A stretch of DNA of 32,000 nucleotides from Candidatus Fibrimonadaceae bacterium. GTDB lineage: Bacteria; Fibrobacterota; Fibrobacteria; Fibrobacterales; Fibrobacteraceae. Below are positions 6,800 to 27,607 of this stretch, piece by piece (the stretch's first letter is position 1; each line of letters starts with the position of its first letter). The DNA lies in contig JAITUM010000172.1 of NCBI GenBank assembly GCA_031286305.1, forward strand, positions 1 to 32,000, in the 5' to 3' direction. Under the pieces are notes generated by a model. It worked only from the letters and a program-made list of their open reading frames with translations, made no database searches and was not told the DNA's origin. The position numbers were made by a program, and so were the translations under genes.

Positions 6800-7405
6800 A
6801 TGCCCCAAGCTGTGGTTATAGCCACCGGCAACGCCGGCAAAGTGAGTGAGTTTTGCGCTATCCTTAAAGGTAGCGCATTTTCCTTTCTTGTGTCAAAAGA
6901 CGTTGGTTTTATTGAAGAAATCGAAGAAACAGCCCAAACTTTTAAAGGGAATGCCGAAATAAAGGCAAAAGCCGTTTTTGAATATGTGAGTCAAAAATAT
7001 AAGGATTATTGGGTTGTAGCAGACGATTCAGGGCTTGAGGTGGAGGCTTTGGGTGGCAGACCCGGAGTTTTTTCAGCCCGATATGCAGGCGAAAATGCCA
7101 CCGGCGTGGAACGATATACCAAGTTATTGCAAGAAATGGAGAGGCAAACCAATAGAAACGCCAGATTTGTTTGCAGCCTTTGTTTGATAAGACCGGGTCG
7201 CCGCCCGGAATTTTTTGAAGGAGAGTGCAGAGGCAGCATTTTACCCCAAGCTAGAGGGAGCGGCGGTTTTGGCTACGACCCTGTTTTTTTACCTGAAGGT
7301 TATAGCAATGGTTTTGGCGAAATGAGCGAAGAAGAAAAAAATGCTTTGAGCCACAGGGGTAGGGCTATAAGAAGCATGCTCGAGAGGTTAAATGCAGAGA
7401 CATAA
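6800..7405 (+). CDS. rdgB: Non-canonical purine NTP pyrophosphatase (RdgB/HAM1 family)
   Basis: 201 aa. VIATGNAGK N-terminus, DDSGLEV, FGYDPVF, and SHRGRA near the C-terminus. Confidence 0.9.
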   Translation: MPQAVVIATGNAGKVSEFCAILKGSAFSFLVSKDVGFIEEIEETAQTFKGNAEIKAKAVFEYVSQKYKDYWVVADDSGLEVEALGGRPGVFSARYAGENATGVERYTKLLQEMERQTNRNARFVCSLCLIRPGRRPEFFEGECRGSILPQARGSGGFGYDPVFLPEGYSNGFGEMSEEEKNALSHRGRAIRSMLERLNAET

Positions 7406-10501: not shown

Positions 10502-11424
10502 TTCACGGTTTCGGGTAACCCTGTGCCGAATGTGTATTTTGGTTCCCAGCCAAGCTCTTTGCGAATGCGGGTTGCATCTATGGCATAGCGCAAATCGTGC
10601 CCCAAGCGGTCTGTTACAAATTCAATTTGAGTTTCATCCACGCCCATCATTTTAACGAGTTCTTTTGCAATATCTATATTTTTCCACTCATTGTTTCCAC
10701 CAATATTATACACTCGTCCTGCCTCTCCCTTTTCCAAAGCGAGCAAAATTCCCGTGCAATGATCTTCAACATGAAGCCAATCGCGAACATTCAACCCTTT
10801 ACCATAAACAGGAATCTTTTTGCCTTGCATAAGATGCGTAACCGCAAGCGGAATCAGTTTTTCGGGGAATTGATAAGGGCCATAATTGTTTGAGCAACGG
10901 GTTATTACGGTATCAAGGTTGTAGGTTTCGTTCCATGCGCGTACCAAAAAATCTGCGCCTGCTTTTGACGCGCTGTATGGGCTGTTTGGTGCAAGCGGGG
11001 TATCTTCGGTAAAAAGTCCGGTTTCTCCGAGCGTTCCGTAAACCTCATCTGTGCTAACTTGTAAAAATCTTATTTTTTTCTCTTTTGCATATTTCAGAAG
11101 TTTTAAAGTTCCTTCCACATTTGTGCGAATAAACACGCCCGGATTTTTTATTGAATTATCAACATGCGACTCTGCCGCAAAGTTCACAATAGCATCCACG
11201 CTTGGCAGCAAACTGCCTGCGGCGCAAATATCTTCATCGCTAGTTATATCGCCTTTAAAAAAGGAGTAGCGGGGATTATCCTCAACATCTCTCAGATTTT
11301 CAATATTGCCTGCATAGGTCAAAGCATCTAAGTTTGCAATATTCCAATTAGGCCGTTCTTTTAAAACAAGTTTAACAAAGTTGGTCCCAATAAACCCGCA
11401 ACAACCGGTAACTAAAATGTTCAT
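10456..11424 (-). CDS. rfbB: dTDP-glucose 4,6-dehydratase
   Basis: Start taken at internal ATG 11424 (MNILVTGCCGFIGTNF, Rossmann GxxGxxG). YSASKAGAD (YxxxK) present, and the end resembles RfbB (GLPETVKWYKENEGWWKPLK). Confidence 0.9.
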   Translation of the reverse strand: MNILVTGCCGFIGTNFVKLVLKERPNWNIANLDALTYAGNIENLRDVEDNPRYSFFKGDITSDEDICAAGSLLPSVDAIVNFAAESHVDNSIKNPGVFIRTNVEGTLKLLKYAKEKKIRFLQVSTDEVYGTLGETGLFTEDTPLAPNSPYSASKAGADFLVRAWNETYNLDTVITRCSNNYGPYQFPEKLIPLAVTHLMQGKKIPVYGKGLNVRDWLHVEDHCTGILLALEKGEAGRVYNIGGNNEWKNIDIAKELVKMMGVDETQIEFVTDRLGHDLRYAIDATRIRKELGWEPKYTFGTGLPETVKWYKENEGWWKPLKG

Positions 11425-11483
11425 GCTTTGAATATAGTAATTAATGATTAACTCAATGTTTGGGTAGTAAGCGGTATAATGTA

Positions 11484-11512
11484 AATATACATTATTTTTC
11501 GGCAAACGTCAA
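11484..11512 (-). promoter_or_regulatory. Sigma-70-type promoter for rfbB: TTGACG, 17 nt spacer, TATATT
   Basis: Minus-strand TTGACG (11512-11507), 17 nt spacer, TATATT (11489-11484). An A-rich tract lies upstream and the site is about 55 nt upstream of ATG 11424. Confidence 0.45.
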
Positions 11513-11714
11513 CTTTTTTTGCATTTTTTTTTATTTTTTTTAATATTTTTTTTGCGCCAAGCTAGCTAGCGAGGCTCTTTTTTTTAATTTTGCGTATCAA
11601 GCTAATACACAAACAACAGCTTTTGGGCTACCTTCACAGGTAGCAAAACAACAATAAGCGCTTACAACATTACATTAGCTTTTTTTTTAAAAAAACCTTT
11701 GTCATGCAAAGCTT

Positions 11715-12668
11715 CTAGCCTCTATAGGGCTCACCGGATTTAACAACACCGAAAGCTATTTTTACTAGCCTATGCATTACAGCAGTCAAAGCTAACATTT
11801 TAGGTTTTCCTTTTTCTGTTAGCCTTTTATACATTTTTGCCATTGGGGTTCTGTTAAGCTGGATAGCACTAGAGGCGCACATAAACAAAAGACCGCGCAA
11901 ATACGGGTTGCCTGTTTTGGATATTTTGCCATTGCCTTTTATGCTTGTGCCGCTTTCAAAAATTGTTGGGTCTAAACCAATAAAAGATGTTAGCTGCTTG
12001 TGCGTTGCAAACGGTTCTAGACCTTTGCAACGGACAAGAAGCGTAGCGGCTGTTTTGGCACCTATGCCGGGTATCGTTTTCGACAGACGAAATTGCTCCG
12101 GGAAAATTTCCTTTACCAAATCGTAAAGTTCTTTTTCCAAGGCTTTTTGCTGCTCTTTGCAAATGGACTTCACGCTAGACATTGCAGCTAATGCTTTGTC
12201 GCTTTTGCCAGCTACTAGAGCGGCGGAAGTTTTCATATTGCCCGCAGACCTTTCGAGCTTGGATAGACCGGACAATAGGGAAACTATCACCATAGCCCTT
12301 GCATGTTTAAGTGGCAAAGGCTGCCAAAATTCTATCTGTGCGCTCTTGGTCTCTGCGTAGCCTGCAATGAGTCTAGCGTCCTTTTTATCCGTCTTTACCT
12401 TGTTGCCAAGAGACTGCATATAACGACGGACAAAAAGGGGGTTAAATATCCGAACAAGCGCGCCGTTTTTACACAGGAATTTAGCCATCTGGTAATGGTA
12501 ATTACCTGTTGCCTCCATTGTGTAAATAGCATTGGGCGGGGTGTTCTTTAGAAGAACGCGCCAGCCTTTGCGGTTGTTGCTGTATTTGACATCAACGCCA
12601 TTGCAATGGGCGTTAAATGTGTCTTTTGAGATGTCTATGCCAACATAGACCTTTTTCTTAACATTCAT
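11715..12668 (-). CDS. IS110-family DEDD transposase/recombinase
   Basis: Start at ATG 12668 after GAGAGG. N-terminal VYVGIDISKDTFNAH (DEDD_Tnp_IS110-type). C-terminal LSKTIPGIGAKTAATLL...FESGTSIKGNGKISKTGNPYLRGLL (Transposase_20-type). Confidence 0.9.
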   Translation of the reverse strand: MNVKKKVYVGIDISKDTFNAHCNGVDVKYSNNRKGWRVLLKNTPPNAIYTMEATGNYHYQMAKFLCKNGALVRIFNPLFVRRYMQSLGNKVKTDKKDARLIAGYAETKSAQIEFWQPLPLKHARAMVIVSLLSGLSKLERSAGNMKTSAALVAGKSDKALAAMSSVKSICKEQQKALEKELYDLVKEIFPEQFRLSKTIPGIGAKTAATLLVRCKGLEPFATHKQLTSFIGLDPTIFESGTSIKGNGKISKTGNPYLRGLLFMCASSAIQLNRTPMAKMYKRLTEKGKPKMLALTAVMHRLVKIAFGVVKSGEPYRG

Positions 12669-12865
12669 GTTAACCTCTCTGTTTAAGTGTTTCAACGCTT
12701 GCGGGGACTTAATACCTTCACTCCTATAAACGAGCGCGAAGCCCAGAGTCTCAACTCGGCAAACATCACCACAAGCGTTTCCCATCATGCCACTATCTTA
12801 TTTCGCAAGCGTAAAAGCCCAAGGGTATGGACAGTTTCAGGCATGAAGGGTAATAAGGATTATCG
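12669..12865 (-). ncRNA. Candidate IS110 bridge (seek) RNA in the upstream non-coding end
   Basis: This stretch is GC-richer than the flanking AT-rich DNA. The long-range helix 12695-12704 / 12769-12778 has one G-U pair only on the minus-sense transcript. TCATGC (12785-12790) and GCATGA (12841-12846) match the terminal repeat GTCATGC in both orientations. The ends of the RNA are not defined. Confidence 0.35.
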
Positions 12866-13131
12866 ACCCGAAATTGAAATGCTTAATGTTTTTATTTTTA
12901 GTTTTTTTTTTACTAAACTGAATGAGAGCAAAAAGCACGCCAAAATAGACAGGCGGAAAAGGGAATCGATTTTTTTTCATATTATTTTTTATTCCATGCT
13001 ACTACATAAAAAATTTTTCTATTCAGAAAACCATCTGAAAAAAACCTAGAATTTTGTCATGCTTTTTGCAAACCACTACAGGGGATATTATAAATGTTTT
13101 CAATTATTCAAAATAATGATAAATATTAAAC

Positions 13132-13177
13132 TTTTCCCTGAACTGCCCATAATAGGGTGAAGGCAGTTCAGGGAAAA
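13132..13177. promoter_or_regulatory. Perfect 16-bp stem / 14-nt loop hairpin (candidate packaging signal, complementary-strand origin or recombination site)
   Basis: ttttccctgaactgcc (13132-13147) pairs perfectly with ggcagttcagggaaaa (13162-13177). No U-run follows on either strand, so it is not a classical terminator. Confidence 0.5.
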
Positions 13178-13277
13178 ATTTTAATAGACCCGCACCGCCA
13201 ACAACGGCTACACTTTGCCGCCGATGACAAAGGCAAAGAAAACAAAAACAGTCCGAAAGGACAATAAGGAGGTCAAC

Positions 13278-13583
13278 ATGACTAAAAGGAACAAGCTAGA
13301 AATAGCACGGATAAACGCAAACCAAAGTATAGATTTTTTTCGAATGAAAATCTGTGATTTGGAAAAAATAGGAAGCATAGAACTAAGAGCAAACAATACA
13401 GGCTCGCTAGGGTATAAAAATCTATACTTTGATAACGAAGATATTGGAATGGTGCTAATGAATGTGGAAACCAACGAACCGGAAGAATACGCAAACATAC
13501 ATTTGCAATATATGCCAAATATATGCGTGTTATGCATAGCCTACGAAAAAGAAAGATTAAAAATATTAAGAAAGGAGGTGTAG
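13278..13583 (+). CDS. Hypothetical protein (101 aa), opposite orientation to the phage structural module
   Basis: ATG 13278 lies 6 nt after AAGGAGG, and the stop abuts the next ORF. No motif recognised. Confidence 0.5.
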   Translation: MTKRNKLEIARINANQSIDFFRMKICDLEKIGSIELRANNTGSLGYKNLYFDNEDIGMVLMNVETNEPEEYANIHLQYMPNICVLCIAYEKERLKILRKEV

Positions 13584-13584
13584 A

Positions 13585-13806
13585 ATGAGGATAGAGCGGA
13601 AATATAGCAGAGCCCTAGACTATTGGGATAGGGCACTAAACCACACAATGAATGGGAAAAATAAAATTGCCTTGTGCTGTGCAAAGGTGGCAGCATACTA
13701 TTTTGACTTCGTGGCGCAGAATGCCCCGGAACTGGAGGATAGCAAGAAGGCTAGAGCGTATTTTTTCCAAGTGTGCGATAGCTATGGCTTAAACTACAAG
13801 ACGTGA
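13585..13806 (+). CDS. Hypothetical protein (73 aa)
   Basis: ATG 13585 follows AAGGAGGTG and lies 2 nt after the previous stop, suggesting a coupled pair. No motif recognised. Confidence 0.45.
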   Translation: MRIERKYSRALDYWDRALNHTMNGKNKIALCCAKVAAYYFDFVAQNAPELEDSKKARAYFFQVCDSYGLNYKT

Positions 13807-13862
13807 AAAAAGCCCTCCCGCCCATGCTTCAAGATTTAACACAGGCGGGTAACAGATTTAAT

Positions 13863-14174
13863 TTACTTTTCACTTTTTGCTCGTGGATGACGTCCTAACG
13901 TATGAAAAACACCCTTTAGGTTAGGGTCGGAGCTACTACGCCATTTATGGGTATTGCCTCTATTATCTTTACCGCCACAATCTGCGACCGCTTTAGCGTT
14001 TTGTTCACTCTTTTTCATTTCAAGACAAGGAGCCGTGCCGGGGCTTATTACAATAAGCTCTCCGTTTTCACAGACCAAATAACAGCCGGTCACGGGGGGG
14101 CTGTGCCGTTCTTGTGCAAAGGCACAGACAACAAGCATAAAAGCAAAAACGAAAATAAAAGAAATATTTATCAT
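13863..14174 (-). CDS. Small secreted protein (103 aa), apparently leaderless mRNA
   Basis: Signal-like MINISFIFVFAFMLVVCAFAQ followed by four further Cys. There is no SD, but a consensus promoter places the predicted transcription start within a few nt of the ATG. Confidence 0.45.
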   Translation of the reverse strand: MINISFIFVFAFMLVVCAFAQERHSPPVTGCYLVCENGELIVISPGTAPCLEMKKSEQNAKAVADCGGKDNRGNTHKWRSSSDPNLKGVFHTLGRHPRAKSEK

Positions 14175-14182
14175 ATATACAT

Positions 14183-14211
14183 AATATACATTTTTTTTTA
14201 CGACATGTCAA
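14183..14211 (-). promoter_or_regulatory. Sigma-70-type promoter (TTGACA, 17 nt spacer, TATATT) with its -10 element 8 nt from ATG 14174
   Basis: Minus-strand TTGACA (14211-14206), 17 nt spacer, TATATT (14188-14183). Only ATGTATAT separates the -10 element from the start codon. Confidence 0.45.
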
Positions 14212-14229
14212 GTTTTTTTTATGTTTTTT

Positions 14230-14982
14230 TTAGAATGGTAAAGGCTCATCGTCTAAGTTTATTTTGTAGTTCGGTTTTTCTGCGTAAGGGTCATAGGGTG
14301 GAATGACTGGTTCAAAGCCGTCTCTGTTTATTCGATACTCGCTTTTATACTCGTTGTAATAACGGCGCAGGGAAATGGTTAAATTGGCTTGCTGGTAAAC
14401 GCTCATTTTATACATCTGCTCTTCAAAAAGCAATAAAAATTCTGTAAAGGTTTCGCATTGACCCAGAGACTGGAAATTTTTAATTACGCTCTTTGTTTGG
14501 TTGATTTTATCAACGCTAGGTAAAAACGAATCTAAAAACAATGGGTCATTGGTTTCAACGCTTGCAGGGCTATACTGGTGCTTCTGCGGGTCATCGGCAT
14601 GGACTAGGTAACGCCTTGCACCCTTGATACAATAAACGCGCTCAAAGCTGTTTGGCATTAATAGCTGTTGGTTTTCTTCTTGGGCGGGTTCTTTTTCTTC
14701 ATTTTCTTTAGGTTCTTCTTTGTCAAATTTGCCGTATTCCTTGAAATAGTTTTGCATGGTGCTTAGTTCCCGGCTGGTGGCAAATGACAGCAGCAAATGC
14801 CAATGGGGTTTTACAGGTTCGTTCAGTTCATTGGTATCGTGGTCATGCTGGATAAAATAGAAGTTGCGGCATATTGATTTACAACGCTCTTTTATGGCTT
14901 CTAGATTATCCCAACCGGTTGGAATAATTAATTGCCAGCTTCTAGACTGGATTTTCTTTTCTTTTTTTGCTCTAGTTTTCAT
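14230..14982 (-). CDS. Rolling-circle replication initiator, plasmid RepB/pMV158 (Rep_2)-like
   Basis: 250 aa. FYFIQHDHD corresponds to LHDKD of RepB, KPHWHLLLSF to KAHYHVLY, and RYLVHADDPQKHQYSPASV is the Tyr-containing catalytic region. AAGGAA lies upstream. Confidence 0.75.
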   Translation of the reverse strand: MKTRAKKEKKIQSRSWQLIIPTGWDNLEAIKERCKSICRNFYFIQHDHDTNELNEPVKPHWHLLLSFATSRELSTMQNYFKEYGKFDKEEPKENEEKEPAQEENQQLLMPNSFERVYCIKGARRYLVHADDPQKHQYSPASVETNDPLFLDSFLPSVDKINQTKSVIKNFQSLGQCETFTEFLLLFEEQMYKMSVYQQANLTISLRRYYNEYKSEYRINRDGFEPVIPPYDPYAEKPNYKINLDDEPLPF

Positions 14983-15019
14983 CTTTAATTCCTTTGTTAA
15001 AGGTTAAATGTTAACTACC

Positions 15020-15090
15020 ACTACACCACGCATTAAGACAAGCCCATGCGTGGTGTAGTAGAAATTGGATTTCTACGGCTTTTTACTACA
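15020..15090 (-). promoter_or_regulatory. Candidate double-strand origin: two overlapping hairpins carrying TACTACA motifs immediately upstream of rep
   Basis: Hairpin 1 has a 14-bp perfect stem (15020-15033 / 15046-15059) and a 12-nt loop. Hairpin 2 has 11-bp arms with one mismatch (15054-15064 / 15080-15090). TACTACA sits at 15084-15090 and its complement at 15054-15060. The pMV158 family nick site is TACTACG/AC. Confidence 0.45.
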
Positions 15091-15262
15091 GATACTTGAA
15101 TTTCATAAGCCTTTTATAGCAGCCGTCGGAATTGCACCGCTCTACCAAACTGTATTCTTTCGTGCCCGACATCATACGATACCGGTGGTCGCTTGACTAC
15201 CAAGCTCGGCTACTAACTCCCTGTTTTCTCGGCTAGCTACAGGGATTTTACTTTAGACATAT

Positions 15263-15613
15263 TCAACCCCAAAAAATAAAAAATGCGAATTTGCAAACAT
15301 AAGCAATAAAAAATAAGTAGCAAACATAAAACAAAGAAAGCGCAAAAGGGACAATGAAAGCGAAACGAATTGGCAAAAGAAACAAACAAAATATACACGA
15401 AAAAAAAGCCAAAAAAGCGCCGAAAAAAAGTTGATAGCCAACATCAAAAACGACACCGAAAAGAGTATTGATAGCACCAAAAGAAACGCAGGCAATAGAA
15501 AATGTAATTACACTCATTAGCTTAACATGCTCATATTTCTTAACTTGGAAATAATGGATACATTTCAAATAATAAAACCTAACCAAACGAGAAACAAACA
15601 TTTTAAGTGACAT
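15263..15613 (-). CDS. Phage integral membrane protein (116 aa)
   Basis: ATG 15613 lies 4 nt after the stop of the preceding ORF, with AAGGGG upstream. Three to four hydrophobic segments. Confidence 0.5.
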   Translation of the reverse strand: MSLKMFVSRLVRFYYLKCIHYFQVKKYEHVKLMSVITFSIACVSFGAINTLFGVVFDVGYQLFFGAFLAFFSCIFCLFLLPIRFAFIVPFALSLFYVCYLFFIAYVCKFAFFIFWG

Positions 15614-15617
15614 TATT

Positions 15618-15764
15618 TTACCCCTTGATGAATTTTAAAGGACAATTTGCACAAGTGCCATCATAAGGGCAGTCAGAGCAAATACAGCAACACAAATCAG
15701 AATATTCACCGCAGGCAATGCAAATGCCGTTCTTATTTATTTTATCTATATCTATGGAATCCAT
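15618..15764 (-). CDS. Cys-rich 48-aa protein (11 Cys), below the ORF-track cutoff
   Basis: ATG 15764 follows GAGAGG. Translation is MDSIDIDKINKNGICIACGEYSDLCCCICSDCPYDGTCANCPLKFIKG. It is tightly followed by the next ORF. Confidence 0.45.
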   Translation of the reverse strand: MDSIDIDKINKNGICIACGEYSDLCCCICSDCPYDGTCANCPLKFIKG

Positions 15765-15904
15765 TTTTACCTCTCTACCGTGTCATCAACTGTTAAATAG
15801 TTTTTTTTCATTTCCAACGCCTCCGGCTTTTGAAAAAATGAAATTTGAACATCCTTTTGAGACTGTAGAAAACTATGTCAATAATAGCACTCATTTTTTT
15901 TCTC

Positions 15905-16084
15905 CTATGTTTTTGAGGCTCCATATACCAACAGATGTATTGTTATTATTATAGCTACCGCACCGGCAACAAATGGGATAAAAGTTAACGCACCACCCTG
16001 AAAGCCTAGCGTAAAAGCTGCTATTACACTATCCACAATTGCAGGAGTTAACTCATAAGGGGAATCACAAGCAAATGTTGTCAC
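15905..16084 (-). CDS. Small hydrophobic phage protein (59 aa)
   Basis: GTG 16084 lies 5 nt after GAGG and directly after the stop of the previous micro-ORF. The C-terminal half FIPFVAGAVAIIITIHLLVY is a TM segment. The ORF track extends it to 16132. Confidence 0.4.
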   Translation of the reverse strand: MTTFACDSPYELTPAIVDSVIAAFTLGFQGGALTFIPFVAGAVAIIITIHLLVYGASKT

Positions 16085-16086
16085 AA

Positions 16087-16176
16087 TTACCTCACAGCTA
16101 AAAAGAAAAGGACACCGAAAATTACAACGCACACACAGCCCAAAAAATAACCCAAAAGGAAAGAAAGAACAAACAC
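16087..16176 (-). CDS. 29-aa single-TM peptide (pVII/pIX-sized)
   Basis: GTG 16176 lies 6 nt after AAGGAGG and abuts the previous stop (TAAGTG). Translation is (M)FVLSFLLGYFLGCVCVVIFGVLFFLAVR. Confidence 0.45.
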   Translation of the reverse strand: MFVLSFLLGYFLGCVCVVIFGVLFFLAVR

Positions 16177-16287
16177 TTAAAACCTCCTTCTAAGGTAATC
16201 ATAAGCAAACCAAACGCAACATAAAACAGACCAACAGACAATAAAAATTGAGCAAGCCAAACCACTAACAAAAAGAAATCTATCCAT
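16177..16287 (-). CDS. 36-aa single-TM peptide (pVII/pIX-sized)
   Basis: ATG 16287 directly follows the TAG of the 235-aa ORF, with AAGGAGG 8 nt upstream. Translation is MDRFLFVSGLACSIFIVCWSVLCCVWFAYDYLRRRF. Confidence 0.45.
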   Translation of the reverse strand: MDRFLFVSGLACSIFIVCWSVLCCVWFAYDYLRRRF

Positions 16288-24651: not shown

Positions 24652-25494
24652 CTAGACTCTTGCGCTTTCAATGCTGAATAGCAGAATTCCTTCGCAGCCT
24701 AAGTCTCGCAGTTTGTCCATAACGGAGTTCACTTCTTCGCTTTTTACCATTGCTTTGACTGAGCACCAGTTTTGGTTTTTAAGCGTTGTCACGGTGGGGG
24801 ATTCCAAGCCCGGTGTTATGGCGCATGCTTTTTCCAGCAGGTTTGAGGGAACATTGTATTCCACCATTTTATAGCTCATAGCAACCAATTTGCCTTCTAT
24901 GCGGCGGCTAAGGGTGCAAACTTCCGGGCTATTTTTGCGGTCTGGGTGAGCAAATAATGCCGCATTGCTTTTGAAAAGCGGTTCGCCCAAAATGCGCAAT
25001 CCGGCTTGTTTTAGCGTTGTTCCTGTTTCTACCACATCCACAACGGCATCTGCCACGCCAAGCCCCACAGAAATTTCAACAGCACCTTCCAAAAACACAA
25101 GTTCCATATCCGGTTTTTTAAAATAACTGCGCACAATGCTTGGGAAGCTTGTTGCTATGCGTAGTTTTTTTAGTTCGTCTAAACTTTTATAATCGCTTTG
25201 CTCGGGAATGGCGGCGCAGTGTTTGCTTGCGCCAAAAGGCAGGTCTAGTATTTTCACAGCAGGGCTTAGAGCTTCTGCGCAAAAGTCTATGCCTGTTATG
25301 CCTGCATCTATTATGCCTTTGCCAACATACATGGGAATGTCGCTTGGTCGCAAAAAATAAAATTCAATGCCGTTAGCAGTGTCAATGGAGCTTAAAGTTT
25401 TTGAGGGTTTATTGGCTTTATATCCGCAAGCTCTCAGCAAATCCATAGCCGGCTCGGCCAGCATACCCTTATTAGGAACAGCAACTTTTATCAT
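24652..25494 (-). CDS. hisG: ATP phosphoribosyltransferase (long form)
   Basis: Start taken at ATG 25494 (MIKVAVPNKGMLAEPAMDLL), which avoids overlap with the upstream gene. A C-terminal regulatory-domain-like region is present. Confidence 0.9.
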   Translation of the reverse strand: MIKVAVPNKGMLAEPAMDLLRACGYKANKPSKTLSSIDTANGIEFYFLRPSDIPMYVGKGIIDAGITGIDFCAEALSPAVKILDLPFGASKHCAAIPEQSDYKSLDELKKLRIATSFPSIVRSYFKKPDMELVFLEGAVEISVGLGVADAVVDVVETGTTLKQAGLRILGEPLFKSNAALFAHPDRKNSPEVCTLSRRIEGKLVAMSYKMVEYNVPSNLLEKACAITPGLESPTVTTLKNQNWCSVKAMVKSEEVNSVMDKLRDLGCEGILLFSIESARV

Positions 25495-25513: not shown

Positions 25514-27607
25514 CTAAGCCCTAAGATCCAGGCTGTTTTTTTCTTTTTTTTCTGCAACTTTCAGAATATGAACTTTTGGCGTTTTGCCATAAATGAGTTC
25601 GCCAAGAGACAGACCGATATCTGCCAGCTCCTTTGCCAAAGTTTCCCTTTCCTCTTTCACCGCGTCGCTGGCTGTTCCAGCATCGTCTTGAAAACGGATA
25701 TTCAAAATATTTTTGCTTAAAACTAAATCCACATGTACTTTGCCAAGTTTTTTTGTATTAGTTTCTATTGAAAAAGAAAGCGCGGAATCTTGTCGTTTTT
25801 TGGAACTGCCTTTGCGCTCGTCTTTTATTTTCAACCGCCCTTTTTGCAACTCTCCTTCGTGCATAAAATAAAATACATTTTCTTTGTCGATTTGCGGACG
25901 GGTATCCTGGTCAATGCGTGTCCATTGAATTTGCTCTTTCAAATTTTGCAGCACATTGCGAATTTCTTCGTGCGTTTTTGCTTGTTCGCTAAAATTTACA
26001 TTTTGCTGTACTTGTTGCTCGGTATATTTAAACAAAATTTTCTCAATTGCTTTTTGCAAAGCCTCCGGTTGCCACACTTTGCCCGTTGGCAGTTCCTGCA
26101 ATAATTCTCTCCTAACCGGCTCCGGCAAATTTTTAAATAAATCTCCCTCATAATTTCCAAGCGGCTGGTACTTTAAAAGTTGAGCGCTGAGAGTTGAGCA
26201 TTGAGAGTTCCCCTCTTGAAAAACAGGTTGAGCGGTAAGAGAGGGGTGCCCGGAGGGCGGGGTGTGGTCTAGAGAAATGACTCTCCACAGTAAGTTTGCT
26301 TGTTCTTTTGTAACATTTGTTCCATGTTCGGTTTGCAGAGAAAGTTCGTGCATGGTGCTTGCAAAGGTTCTCACTATTTCCGGATTTTCCGGCAAATTTC
26401 CGAAAGATAAAATGGTATCTCTAATGCTTAATATCTGCGGAGTTAAAGGCAAATTTGTGCTTAACCAAAAATTTCTTTCTTCTTTTGGAATTTGCACACT
26501 AGCAGGCCAAGGTTGTAAAAAGTGGCTAGTGGCTAGTGGCTGGTGGCTAGTGGCTAGTGGTTGGGAAATTTTACTGGATGTTGTGGATTGAGGATTACTC
26601 GCCTTTGGCGATTCACCAGCGAAGTGTTCAGCGGGAAGGGTGTTAGGGATTGGGGAATTAATAGTTGGGGGTTGGTGGAGTGAGAGGGCTATTTCGATTT
26701 TTTGAGGGAGAGTTATTGTTGTTTTTGGCGGTAGTGGAATTTCAAATGAAGGTCTATTTTCTGTTTTTTCCGGTTGCGCATTTTTTATTAACGGTGTAAT
26801 CACAAGGCTTTCGGCTTTTGGAGTGACAATGGCAAAAACAGGTTTTTCACTGAATACGGTAGATAGTTTTTTTGCCAAATCTTTTGGAACTTCAATGGCT
26901 GTTTTTTGCAACATAACAGCTTCCAATTCTTTTAGCGGAGCGTTTTGCAATTCTCGTGGAATGCCTAATTCTTTTAGTTCTTGCAAAGCGTGGAAAACCA
27001 CTTGAAAGGTTTGCGGCGATGCTACTGGAGCATTGGGGGCATTGGGAACGTTGCGAACATCCGTGCTTTCTTGCGTAACAATTTGCGAAGCAATGGAAAC
27101 AACGCTTATAAAATCGTTTTTTGAAAGAGCTAAGAGCAATTTATTTTCCTGTGGAATTTCCGGAGCAGGATTCAAAATTTTTACTGCTTCTGCAATTGCA
27201 AGTTTTAAGGCAGGTAACTGTTGCTTGTCTATAGGAGCGTTTAAATTTTGCTGGATAACTTCTAACAGTTTTAATAATTTTTTCACAGGAATATTTTCTT
27301 GATTTGCAGAAATATTATCTCTTACTTTCGATAAATCCTGAGCAAGTTCCGGAAATTTATTTTTTAATTCTACAATCAAACGAGAAATATCATCTATAAG
27401 TTTAAGCTTCTCAATATTCAACCTGGTAGCGGCTTTATCGTCAAACGTTTCTTTTAATTGAGAGTCTTTTTTAGTTGAGAGTTGAGAGTTAAGAGCTGAG
27501 AACTCCCTTTCCGCTTTGTATTTCGCTGGTGAACAGCTGGAGGCTGGTAGTTGAGAGTTATTCTCCATTCTCAATTCTCCACTTTCAACTAGACCTGAGT
27601 TTCTCAC
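25514..27607 (-). CDS. Pro/Gln-rich protein with FliK-like (Flg_hook-type) C-terminal domain; contains in-frame repeat elements
   Basis: The C-terminal ALSFSIETNTKKLGKVHVDLVLSKNILNIRFQDDAGTASDAVKEERETLAKELADIGLSLGEL follows the P..LG.V.V.L....L.V.F......L......L...L...GL.L pattern of hook-length control proteins. GTG 27607 overlaps the upstream stop (GTGA). An alternative ATG at 27568 lies 8 nt after GGAG. Confidence 0.55.
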   Translation of the reverse strand: MRNSGLVESGELRMENNSQLPASSCSPAKYKAEREFSALNSQLSTKKDSQLKETFDDKAATRLNIEKLKLIDDISRLIVELKNKFPELAQDLSKVRDNISANQENIPVKKLLKLLEVIQQNLNAPIDKQQLPALKLAIAEAVKILNPAPEIPQENKLLLALSKNDFISVVSIASQIVTQESTDVRNVPNAPNAPVASPQTFQVVFHALQELKELGIPRELQNAPLKELEAVMLQKTAIEVPKDLAKKLSTVFSEKPVFAIVTPKAESLVITPLIKNAQPEKTENRPSFEIPLPPKTTITLPQKIEIALSLHQPPTINSPIPNTLPAEHFAGESPKASNPQSTTSSKISQPLATSHQPLATSHFLQPWPASVQIPKEERNFWLSTNLPLTPQILSIRDTILSFGNLPENPEIVRTFASTMHELSLQTEHGTNVTKEQANLLWRVISLDHTPPSGHPSLTAQPVFQEGNSQCSTLSAQLLKYQPLGNYEGDLFKNLPEPVRRELLQELPTGKVWQPEALQKAIEKILFKYTEQQVQQNVNFSEQAKTHEEIRNVLQNLKEQIQWTRIDQDTRPQIDKENVFYFMHEGELQKGRLKIKDERKGSSKKRQDSALSFSIETNTKKLGKVHVDLVLSKNILNIRFQDDAGTASDAVKEERETLAKELADIGLSLGELIYGKTPKVHILKVAEKKEKNSLDLRA
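26178..26262 (+). repeat. Heptamer array plus degenerate core, copy D (inside the FliK-like ORF)
   Basis: AGTTGAG CGCTGAG AGTTGAG CATTGAG AGTTCCC (26178-26212) is followed by hairpin CCCCTCT...AGAGGGG (26210-26216 / 26240-26246) and G-rich heptamers TGCCCGG AGGGCGG GGTGTGG. Confidence 0.55.
26522..26688 (-). repeat. Heptamer-flanked repeat element, copy C (inside the FliK-like ORF, inverted relative to A and B)
   Basis: Six GTGGCTA-type units (26522-26563). The core on the minus strand is ACACCCTTCCCGCTGAACACTTCGCTGGTGAA... (26598-26643), 29 of 32 identical to copy A by hand alignment. G-rich heptamers occupy 26644-26688. Confidence 0.75.
27473..27590 (+). repeat. Heptamer-flanked repeat element, copy B (spanning the 5' end of the FliK-like ORF)
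   Basis: AGTTGAG AGTTGAG AGTTAAG AGCTGAG (27473-27500). Core 27501-27547 is AACTCCCTTTCCGCTTTGTATTTCGCTGGTGAACAGCTGGAGGCTGG, 38 of 47 identical to copy A. The right flank 27561-27590 is an imperfect inverted copy of the left array (23 of 30). Confidence 0.75.

What the first reader, a model, noticed from the sequence alone, without database searches (positions are those of the whole stretch)
11698..13062. IS110-family element with a candidate bridge RNA in its 394-nt upstream end
The 317-aa ORF has the DEDD N-terminal motif (VYVGIDISKDTF) and the Transposase_20-type C-terminal motif (IPGIGAKTAATLL...KISKTGNPYLRGLL). TTTGTCATGC occurs at 11698-11707, ending 7 nt from the stop codon, and again at 13053-13062. 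Each copy is preceded by AAAAAAACCT, which delimits a 1.36 kb unit. A long upstream and near-absent downstream non-coding end is the layout of the IS110 subgroup, whose recombinases are programmed by a bispecific bridge (seek) RNA encoded upstream of the gene. The proximal ~190 nt (12669-12865) is GC-richer than its surroundings. It forms a 10-bp long-range helix (12695-12704 / 12769-12778) whose single non-canonical pair is G-U on the transposase-sense transcript but C-A on the other strand. TCATGC (12785-12790) and GCATGA (12841-12846) match the terminal GTCATGC in both orientations, as donor or target guide segments would. This last point is weak, because the hexamer has a palindromic CATG core.
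Basis: partly seen in the sequence, partly recalled or inferred. Interest (0 to 1): 0.7.

Follow-up and report, generated by a model that had tools for sequence, protein, structure and literature searches.

The report
Bridge-RNA recombinase module of filamentous prophage
The gene is a real IS110-type recombinase with a real guide ("bridge") RNA upstream, but the DNA it moves appears to be a whole 9.5-kb filamentous prophage rather than the 1.36-kb insertion sequence proposed, so this looks like a phage that picks its integration site with an RNA guide.

Summary
The ORF (11715-12668, minus) is an IS110/IS621-type recombinase. The 163 nt upstream of it (12692-12854, minus) is a bridge RNA. It has two stem/internal-loop modules that are conserved and covary in 26 related loci. 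In 23 relatives the 3' side of the first loop predicts the right-hand flank (110/138 positions, against 53 when permuted).

The proposed termini are wrong. The TTTGTCATGC repeat belongs to a decayed 46-nt copy of the gene's 3' end. The TCATGC/GCATGA hexamers are the two strands of one stem.

The left target guide CCAUACCCU matches exactly once elsewhere in the window, at 20972-20964, 8.3 kb upstream. It is followed there by the family's conserved donor end CCTAAGG, which the donor loop (UAGGAG) also reads. Between that junction and the bridge RNA lies an inovirus: coat, pIII-like, Zot and Rep genes. Two relatives show the same far junction 9.1-9.4 kb upstream, and three others are simple ~1.5-kb elements.

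The right end is long. It holds a ~95-nt structured element and an outward promoter. Its canonical terminus is missing in this window, so this copy may be immobile.

This is a new variant of known things: bridge RNAs, filamentous phages with IS110 transposases, and cargo-expanded IS110 loci.

The parts
20964..20972 (-). Left junction, host side: left target plus core, CCATACC|CT, the last heptad of a host heptad-repeat element
   Evidence: Exact 9-nt copy of the 5' side of the first loop (LTG CCAUACCCU). It is the only such match in the window outside the RNA gene itself.
20955..20963 (-). Left terminus of the mobile unit (right donor, RD): CCTAAGGTG
   Evidence: CCTAAG follows the LTG match in L004, L012, L035 and L036, and CTAAG does in L011. 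CT+CCTA is the reverse complement of RDG UAGGAG. The 16-mer CCATACCCTCCTAAGG occurs with 0 mismatches, and the next best site has 4.
13208..20880 (-). Inovirus gene module carried between the left terminus and the bridge RNA. It holds a 50-aa major-coat-like ORF (20021-20173), a 547-aa pIII-like ORF (18378-20021), a 146-aa ORF (17938-18378), Zot/pI (16992-17906), HUH Rep (14230-14982) and small ORFs.
   Evidence: Pfam Zot 3.2e-36 and Rep_OBD 1.1e-11. PHROGs Zot-like 1.3e-54 and major coat 2.4e-4. L033, L035, L036 and L048 contain coat-like (L033 only), Zot and Rep genes upstream of the recombinase. IMG/VR lists relatives as viral genomes.
13038..13083 (-). Decayed duplicate of the recombinase 3' end plus terminator.
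   Evidence: Local alignment to 11729->11689 scores 32, reached by 2 of 2000 shuffles. The motif is absent from related loci.
12859..12888 (-). Candidate promoter of the bridge RNA: TTAAGC...GTCGATAAT, conserved in the family as TAAAGTTT-N~15-GCCGATAA
   Evidence: Conserved block directly upstream of stem P1 in the alignments. The resemblance to a FliA/sigma-28 promoter is from memory. The sigma-70 scan did not find it.
12692..12854 (-). Bridge RNA, 163 nt. The target-binding module is 12781-12850 and the donor-binding module is 12696-12777.
   Evidence: Covariance model R1 scores 110 bits, E 1.7e-25, the only hit in the window. The fold is -59.1 kcal/mol, z -3.1. 29 of 35 pairs show compensatory changes, and 77.6% of cells are paired against 37-50% when partners are slid.
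12822..12830 (-). Left target guide (LTG), CCAUACCCU, on the 5' side of the first internal loop
   Evidence: Matches 20972->20964 exactly. The homologous 7 non-core positions are only 29% identical between relatives.
12797..12803 (-). Right target guide (RTG), AAAUAAG, on the 3' side of the first loop. It predicts a right flank of CT|TATTT.
   Evidence: In 23 relatives the homologous positions predict the right flank at 110 of 138 positions. Permutation gives a mean of 53, sd 5.6, maximum 77 in 100,000 trials. The predicted flank is not present in this window.
12747..12755 (-). Left donor guide (LDG), GUUGAGACU, on the 5' side of the second loop
   Evidence: In relatives the homologous guide matches the right-end terminus, e.g. 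L004 GTGAGA|CT, L001 GTAAGA|CT, L037 TTAAAA|CT. No match lies at the right end of this window.
12721..12726 (-). Right donor guide (RDG), UAGGAG, on the 3' side of the second loop
   Evidence: It is the reverse complement of CT+CCTA at 20965->20960.
11715..12668 (-). IS110/IS621-type DEDD-Ser recombinase, 317 aa, with RBS GAGAGG at 12674-12679
11472..11714 (-). Right end (RE).
   Evidence: Homologous to the right ends of L001, L006, L019, L031 and L036 as far as ...ATTATACCG. Promoter scan gives 10 of 12. The element has 23 copies in the loci and a covarying GUGA hairpin.
11446..11471 (-). Degenerate right junction. The canonical LD|CT|RT terminus is missing. Only partial look-alikes are present: ACCG|CT|TACTAC and CATTGAG|TT|AATC. 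The rmlB ATG follows at 11424.

Best explanation
The recombinase and the 163-nt RNA upstream of it form a bridge-RNA recombination module of the IS621 type. This module serves as the integration module of a ~9.5-kb filamentous (inovirus) prophage of a Fibromonadaceae bacterium.

Proposed mechanism:
1. In the circular replicative form, the right end (after the recombinase gene) joins the far end of the phage. This creates a donor site LD-CT-RD, which in the family reads ..GT(A/G)A(A/G)A|CT|CCTAAGG.
2. The second internal loop of the RNA reads this donor site, with LDG GUUGAGACU and RDG UAGGAG.
3. The first loop reads a chromosomal target, with LTG CCAUACCCU and RTG AAAUAAG. The predicted target is CCATACC-CT-TATTT.
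4. The DEDD/Ser recombinase exchanges strands just 3' of the CT core.
5. The product is a prophage flanked by LT-CT-RD on the left and LD-CT-RT on the right.

Shown here: the protein family, the RNA structure and its covariation, guide-to-junction complementarity in the family, the intact left junction in this window at 20964, and the phage genes in between.

Inferred from IS621 biochemistry and structures: the chemistry, the circular intermediate and the expression of the RNA.

In this window the right junction has lost its canonical terminus, so this copy is probably fixed in place.
For: Protein:
- Pfam domains.
- Full-length alignment to the IS621 structure with the DEDD and Ser-Gly residues.

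RNA:
- Conserved ~165 nt in 26 loci whose proteins are 47-72% identical.
- Model R1 hits all of them at 90-136 bits.
- 29 of 35 pairs show compensatory changes, and 0 of 500 shuffles reach the observed value.

Guides:
- The RTG predicts the right flank in 23 loci at 110 of 138 positions, against a permuted maximum of 77. The junction was chosen by the LD consensus alone.
- The LDG matches the right-end terminus in the loci with sequence downstream.
- LTG+RD junctions were found in WIN (8.3 kb upstream), L035 (9.4 kb, exact 9-mer), L036 (9.1 kb), and the short elements L004, L011 and L012.
- The first loop is hypervariable (29% identity) while the second is more conserved (51-67%).
- L008 and L010 are 89% identical, yet 8 of their 19 RNA differences fall in the target guides, and their flanks differ accordingly.

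Phage:
- Zot, Rep and coat genes.
- Phage genes (Zot, Rep) upstream of the recombinase in L033, L035, L036 and L048.

Precedent:
- Neisseria Nf and Thermus filamentous prophages end in an IS110 transposase thought to integrate them (PMC7058167, PMC11437467).
- Cargo-expanded IS110 loci have been described (bioRxiv 10.64898/2026.08.14.744561).
Against: - In this window only half of the expected matches exist. LTG-LT and RDG-RD are perfect, but LDG-LD and RTG-RT have no counterpart anywhere in the 32 kb.
- No circular or empty-site sequence was found, and the contig is a metagenome-assembled one.
- Expression and 5'/3' ends of the RNA are unknown. Its promoter was not detected by the sigma-70 scan.
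- No published bridge-RNA model could be applied.
- Helix P1 is only 57% paired in the model-fitted alignment because its bulge position shifts between sequences.
- One further phage-type relative (L048) has a left-junction candidate without the CCTAAG end.
Confidence: 0.8

Rival explanations
1. It proposes an autonomous 1.36-kb IS110 insertion sequence bounded by the TTTGTCATGC direct repeat, with a 394-nt left end.
For: The 10-mer occurs exactly twice and flanks the gene. Both copies lie next to an A-run followed by CCT.
Against: - The repeat is part of a 46-nt decayed copy of the gene's 3' end and is absent from all relatives.
- Sequence beyond 11698 is homologous to the relatives' right ends for a further ~225 nt.
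- Neither guide loop matches sequence at 11698 or 13062.
- The family core is CT and the family termini are GT(A/G)A(A/G)A|CT and CCTAAG.
Confidence: 0.03
2. An ordinary short IS110 element happens to sit at the edge of an unrelated inovirus prophage. Its own left end decayed near the RNA, and the LTG match at 20964 is a coincidence.
For: - Short relatives exist, with left ends of 219-540 nt (L004, L011, L012).
- A degenerate CCTAAG-like motif (ATTAAGC, 12882-12888, inside the listed segment 12876-12888) sits at the homologous place upstream of the RNA.
- L037 has no phage genes upstream.
Against: - A 9-nt exact LTG match followed directly by the family RD and by the RDG complement has a chance of about 3e-5. 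This is my estimate from 32,000/4^9 x 4^-6.
- The same far junction recurs in L035 and L036, at the host/phage boundary.
- The recombinase sits at the same end of the phage, after Rep, in L031, L033, L035, L036 and L048 and, after phage genes, in L038, at 50-71% protein identity.
Confidence: 0.1
3. The conserved upstream structure is a cis-acting leader of the recombinase mRNA, for example a translational regulator, and not a guide RNA.
For: It ends 23 nt before the start codon and may be co-transcribed. No expression data exist.
Against: The loop sequences covary with DNA 1.1-1.4 kb downstream and up to 9.4 kb upstream. A leader has no reason to do this. The two-loop layout and the order of guides are those of the IS621 bridge RNA (PMC11208160).
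Confidence: 0.03

Closest known systems
IS621 / IS110-group bridge RNA system (Durrant et al. 2024, PMC11208160; Hiraizumi et al. 2024, PMC11208158)
   Same: - DEDD RuvC-like domain plus Tnp domain with Ser-Gly, aligned over the full length.
- The RNA is encoded upstream of the gene.
- A 9-nt LTG includes a CT core, and the RTG reads the core plus the flank.
- The left junction keeps the target's dinucleotide and the right junction keeps the donor's. This is expected from top-strand cleavage 3' of the core.
   Different: - Protein identity is only about 30% by eye from the alignment, and no Rfam or published model matched.
- The donor is a ~9.5-kb phage rather than a 1.3-kb element.
- The right end is long (100-350 nt). 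It holds a complete outward promoter, where IS621 has a split -35/-10 junction promoter, and a ~95-nt structured element.
- The RTG reads 4-8 nt beyond the core.
- The first core position varies in LTG and RDG.
Neisseria Nf/MDA filamentous prophages and Thermus phiOH16/Zuza phages with an IS110-family transposase (Kawai 2005 as cited in PMC7058167; PMC11437467)
   Same: [quoted passage not shown]
- Integration is attributed to that transposase.
- The Nf target repeat has a conserved CT.
   Different: - Those papers describe no guide RNA.
- The proteins are distant, about 30% identical for the GenBank inoviruses.
- Here the guide loops and both kinds of junction can be read directly.
Cargo-expanded IS110 loci (bioRxiv 10.64898/2026.08.14.744561)
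   Same: - IS110 units larger than 2 kb carry cargo between the terminus and the RNA/recombinase.
- Some of that cargo is phage-derived DNA.
- Boundaries often keep only one canonical donor match, as in this window.
   Different: That study emphasises resistance and plasmid cargo, and the text searched does not mention inoviruses. Here the cargo is a complete self-replicating phage, and the arrangement is conserved across a clade.
IS1111-group seekRNA elements
   Same: They have the same recombinase family and the same two-guide logic.
   Different: In IS1111 the RNA lies downstream of the gene. Here it lies upstream, although a separate structured element does sit downstream.

Membership tests
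IS110-family bridge recombinase system | Recombinase with a DEDD RuvC-like domain and a Tnp domain carrying the catalytic Ser | tested here: met
   Pfam PF01548 and PF02371. Alignment to IS621 8wt6 at E 1.8e-32, with D12, E52, D94, D97 and S239-G240 conserved.
IS110-family bridge recombinase system | Structured non-coding RNA of ~150-200 nt next to the gene, with two internal loops | tested here: met
   12692-12854 (-). Fold z -3.1. Family model scores 110 bits. 29 of 35 pairs are compensatory.
IS110-family bridge recombinase system | First loop complementary to the target flanks (LTG-LT and RTG-RT) | tested here: inconclusive
   In this window LTG-LT is exact at 9/9 at 20964-20972, but the RTG-predicted flank CT|TATTT is absent. 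In the family the RTG-RT match is strongly met.
IS110-family bridge recombinase system | Second loop complementary to the element's two ends (LDG-LD and RDG-RD) | tested here: inconclusive
   In this window RDG UAGGAG matches CT+CCTA at 20960-20965, but the LDG has no partner at the right end. In the family the LDG matches the terminus in the loci with sequence downstream.
IS110-family bridge recombinase system | Short conserved core (CT) at both junctions | tested here: met
   CT at the left junction here. CT at the right junction in all relatives examined. The first core base varies at the relatives' left junctions.
IS110-family bridge recombinase system | Match to published bridge-RNA covariance models | not testable with these tools
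   Those models are not on hand. Rfam 15 gave no hit at gathering or E<=10 level in the RNA region.
IS110-family bridge recombinase system | Compact 1.2-1.6-kb insertion sequence | tested here: not met
   The unit defined by the guide matches spans 20963 to about 11472, roughly 9.5 kb. Short members do exist among relatives (L004).
IS110-family bridge recombinase system | RNA expressed, circular intermediate formed, and recombination guide-dependent | not testable with these tools
   No transcript or read data are available.
Inovirus (filamentous) prophage | Zot/pI-type assembly ATPase | tested here: met
   16992-17906. Pfam Zot 3.2e-36 and PHROGs 1.3e-54.
Inovirus (filamentous) prophage | Rolling-circle (HUH) replication initiator | tested here: met
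   14230-14982. Rep_OBD 1.1e-11. Relatives carry Rep_OBD or REP_ORF2-G2P.
Inovirus (filamentous) prophage | Small major coat protein and a large adsorption protein upstream of Zot, in a genome of 5-15 kb | tested here: inconclusive
   The 50-aa ORF hits PHROG major coat only at 2.4e-4. The 547-aa ORF has no family hit. L033 has a weak Phage_Coat_B hit. Size and gene order fit.
Nf-type arrangement (filamentous prophage integrated by its own IS110 transposase) | Transposase gene at one prophage end, with the prophage bounded by sites that the transposase system recognises | tested here: met
   The recombinase is the last gene before the host gene rmlB. The left boundary at 20964 matches the guides. 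The same holds in L035 and L036.

The most novel reading that the evidence does not exclude
A clade of filamentous phages chooses its chromosomal attachment site with a reprogrammable bridge RNA, and the donor is the whole phage replicative form. Close relatives have naturally retargeted themselves by changing only the target-loop guides. The same logic may explain site choice in other inoviruses that carry IS110-type transposases, such as Neisseria Nf/MDA, Thermus and human oral inoviruses. I found no paper in the held library that states this.
Probability: 0.6. Interest if true: 0.72.

Novelty: new variant of a known kind. Interest (0 to 1): 0.62.

Why it matters
If this holds, lysogeny of these filamentous phages is RNA-guided. 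The attachment site would be written in about 14 nt of a phage-encoded RNA rather than in an integrase's protein-DNA specificity.

That would give a direct, testable answer to how IS110-bearing inoviruses pick their sites. This includes the disease-associated Neisseria MDA phage, which inserts in CT-containing repeats.

It would also show natural retargeting between near-identical phages. And it would provide compact orthologues (317 aa, 163-nt RNA) that already move a 9-10-kb, self-replicating cargo.

For annotation, it warns that an 'IS110 transposase' at a prophage edge can mark the boundary of a much larger unit than a 1.3-kb insertion sequence.

Tried and rejected
- Rfam 15 at gathering and at E<=10 gave no bridge-RNA family. 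The only hits were miRNA/snoRNA noise on the hairpin at 13128-13181.
- The exact-protein look-up of the recombinase and of rmlB found nothing on record.
- The left-flank gene was found only on a 1.9-kb contig that ends before the junction.
- The first genome scan found nothing. The second found only a C-terminal fragment (L051).
- RNAalifold on the plain MAFFT alignment recovered only 7 pairs, because the variable stems were out of register. I replaced it with a hand-set structure and a covariance model.
- My first idea was that the left end lies at the A-run 12888-12911, shared by L005, L008 and L010. I dropped it when the guide matches placed the junction at 20964.
- My second idea was that the ~95-nt element downstream is the host target. 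I dropped it when the relatives' right junctions were found 100-200 nt beyond it.
- CTTATTG at 11658 was considered as a right junction and rejected. It is ordinary sequence of the element in all copies.
- TTTATTTCGG at 6963 was rejected because it has no LD and lies inside a gene.
- GTTGAGAGTTATTC at 27550 (+) was rejected as a junction because it is part of a heptad-repeat element.
- IMG/VR relatives are proviruses cut at gene boundaries, so they show no circular junction.
- Handshake-guide positions were inspected by eye and gave no consistent pattern.
Full report
**What is at the coordinates**

The minus-strand ORF 11715-12668 (317 aa, RBS GAGAGG) carries DEDD_Tnp_IS110 and Transposase_20. 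It aligns over its whole length to the IS621 recombinase structure 8wt6 (E 1.8e-32). In that alignment and in a 40-protein family alignment, D12, E52, D94, D97 and S239-G240 stand where IS621 has D11, E60, D102, D105 and S241-G242 (PMC11208158). An identical protein is on record from a Fibromonadaceae metagenome-assembled genome, named 'IS110 family transposase'.

The GC contrast is real, 0.46 against 0.28. The 10-bp helix is real and has a U-G wobble only on the transposase strand.

**The RNA**

A metagenome scan with a family alignment returned 30 loci. Later look-ups added longer versions and further relatives.

The ~165 nt upstream of the start codon are conserved across proteins that are 47-72% identical, while the stems change sequence. 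I set a six-helix structure from the window's fold and built a covariance model from it.

- The model finds one site in the window, 12692-12854 minus, at 110 bits.
- It also finds one site in front of every related gene, at 90-136 bits.
- On the model alignment, 77.6% of cells are paired, against 37-50% when partners are slid.
- 29 of 35 pairs show compensatory changes, and no shuffle reaches the observed values.
- That alignment is fitted to the structure. The plain MAFFT alignment gave the same direction, 71.5% paired and 22 compensatory pairs.

The RNA has two modules, each an outer stem, a short inner helix, an internal loop and a capping hairpin.

**Guides and junctions in the family**

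The rules come from PMC11208160. The left guides equal the top strand of left flank plus core. The right guides are the reverse complement of core plus right flank.

Right junction:
- I took the 7 nt ending in the conserved AAG on the 3' side of the first loop.
- Its reverse complement, CTTnnnn, occurs downstream of the gene in 17 loci, exactly in 12 of them.
- It is always preceded by a conserved AAGGTAA(A/G)A-like sequence.
- That sequence matches each locus's own second-loop 5' side.

To avoid circularity, I then chose the right junction by the LD consensus alone and took the first hit. Own-guide against own-flank agreement was 110 of 138 positions in 23 loci. Permuted pairings gave a mean of 53, sd 5.6, and never more than 77 in 100,000 trials.

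The right ends are therefore 100-350 nt long. They contain a ~95-nt structured element and a complete outward promoter (TTGACA-like, 17 nt, TATATT) about 30 nt from the terminus.

Left junction:
- L004, L011 and L012 carry their LTG sequence 228-548 nt upstream of the start codon (exact in L004, one mismatch in L011 and L012), followed by CCTAAG, or CTAAG in L011.
- These are ordinary short elements.

**This window**

The LTG CCAUACCCU has one match outside the RNA gene, at 20972->20964 on the same strand. It is followed by CCTAAGGTG. CT+CCTA is also the reverse complement of UAGGAG in the second loop. The composite 16-mer is found with no mismatch, and the next best site has four.

The 8.3 kb between this junction and the RNA encodes a 50-aa coat-like protein, a 547-aa protein, Zot/pI, an HUH Rep and small ORFs. 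This is an inovirus.

The same holds in two relatives on long contigs:
- L035 has its exact 9-nt LTG followed by CCTAAG 9.4 kb upstream, between a host gene and the first phage gene.
- L036 has a 7-of-8 match followed by CCTAAGG 9.1 kb upstream.

L031, L033, L038 and L048 also carry Rep and/or Zot upstream of the recombinase. IMG/VR lists relatives as viral genomes. The mobile unit implied by the guides is therefore the phage plus the module, about 9.5 kb.

**What does not fit**

The right end of the window is homologous to the family's only as far as ...ATTATACCG (11472). The last ~15 nt and the LD|CT|RT junction predicted by the guides (GTGAGA or TTGAGA, then CT, then TATTTCG) are absent from the whole window. 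Only weak look-alikes remain before the rmlB start codon.

Three readings are possible:
- decay or deletion of the right junction, leaving a grounded prophage;
- half-matched boundaries of the kind reported for expanded IS110 loci;
- an assembly fault.

I cannot tell these apart, and no empty site or circle was retrievable.

Extending the alignment shows that 13083->13038 is a degenerate copy of the last codons, stop codon and terminator of the gene (11729->11689). The score is reached by 2 of 2000 shuffles. No relative has the motif at a terminus. It is best read as a relic of an earlier copy or a local duplication, not as the ends of the element.

**Comparison with what is known**

- The protein, the RNA layout, the guide order and the CT core are those of the IS621 bridge system.
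- Filamentous prophages that end in an IS110 transposase are known in Neisseria and Thermus. GenBank inoviruses carry ~30%-identical genes.
- Cargo-bearing IS110 loci were described in a 2026 preprint, which does not mention inoviruses.
- Searches of the held library for bridge RNA together with filamentous phages gave nothing relevant.

The element is therefore a new variant of known kinds. What is new is a readable bridge RNA whose guides define the ends of a whole inovirus, in a clade where target loops differ between near-identical phages (L008 against L010).

**Verdict**

- Bridge RNA: real, confidence about 0.93.
- 1.36-kb element with TTTGTCATGC ends: wrong.
- Phage-sized unit: well supported, about 0.8.
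- Activity of this particular copy: doubtful.

Noticed in passing
window 11592-11681 (-); also L002:1046-1135, L008:535-625 and 1639-1728, L036:8999-9090, and others: A ~95-nt conserved element has a covarying hairpin capped by GUGA and a flanking AAGCT.../...AGCTT pairing. There are 23 copies in the loci, often two per phage: one after Rep and one after the recombinase, inside the right end. Its function is unknown. It could be an RNA, or a single-strand DNA origin or packaging signal.
   Followed up: partly
window 11484-11512 (-): The right end holds an outward-facing sigma-70-type promoter, TTGACG-17-TATATT, conserved in relatives about 30 nt from the terminus. In a circle it would read across the junction into the phage. 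Here it reads into the host gene rmlB.
   Followed up: partly
window 12859-12888 (-) and the homologous block in L003-L026: The conserved block upstream of the RNA reads TAAAGTTT-N~15-GCCGATAA. From memory this resembles the FliA/sigma-28 promoter consensus. In the short element L004 the -35-like part coincides with the terminus CCTAAGTT. The window also encodes a FliK-like protein.
   Followed up: no
window 20964-21113, 26522-26644, 27458-27600: Three repeat elements share a ~48-nt core flanked by tandem 7-nt repeats. In the first and third elements inverted copies of the repeats lie on the far side of the core. Each element has a different heptad: GGGTATA/G, GTGGCTA and GTTGAGA. The prophage sits at the edge of the first. 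The heptad of the third equals the 7 non-core bases of the left donor guide, which may be chance.
   Followed up: partly
window 25461-25477 (+), inside hisG: GCATACCCTTATTAGG contains a 12-nt exact run (CATACCCTTATT) within the 14-nt target predicted from the two target guides (CCATACC-CT-TATTT). It is a possible secondary target or a chance match.
   Followed up: no
window 13038-13083 (-): A decayed 46-nt copy of the recombinase 3' end and terminator lies 185 nt upstream of the bridge RNA. This suggests an earlier copy or a module replacement.
   Followed up: partly
window 13128-13181: A 20-bp near-perfect hairpin lies between the phage small ORFs and the module. It is the source of all the weak miRNA-like Rfam hits and is probably a terminator.
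   Followed up: no
L008 vs L010: The two phages are 89% identical. Their bridge RNAs differ at 19 of 200 columns, and 8 of those are in the target guides. Their right flanks (TGAGGG and TGTTTT) follow the guides. This looks like natural retargeting.
   Followed up: partly
L047 (OR148973.1, circular 7551 bp) and other GenBank inoviruses: Human oral and Thermus inoviruses carry ~30%-identical IS110-type transposases. In OR148973 the long non-coding stretch (2392-2628) lies downstream of the gene, as in the IS1111 group. I did not look for a guide RNA there.
   Followed up: no
L050: A relative with a divergent second loop sits next to Thy1, SNF2 helicase, methylase and primase-like genes rather than an inovirus. 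It may be a different kind of cargo.
   Followed up: no
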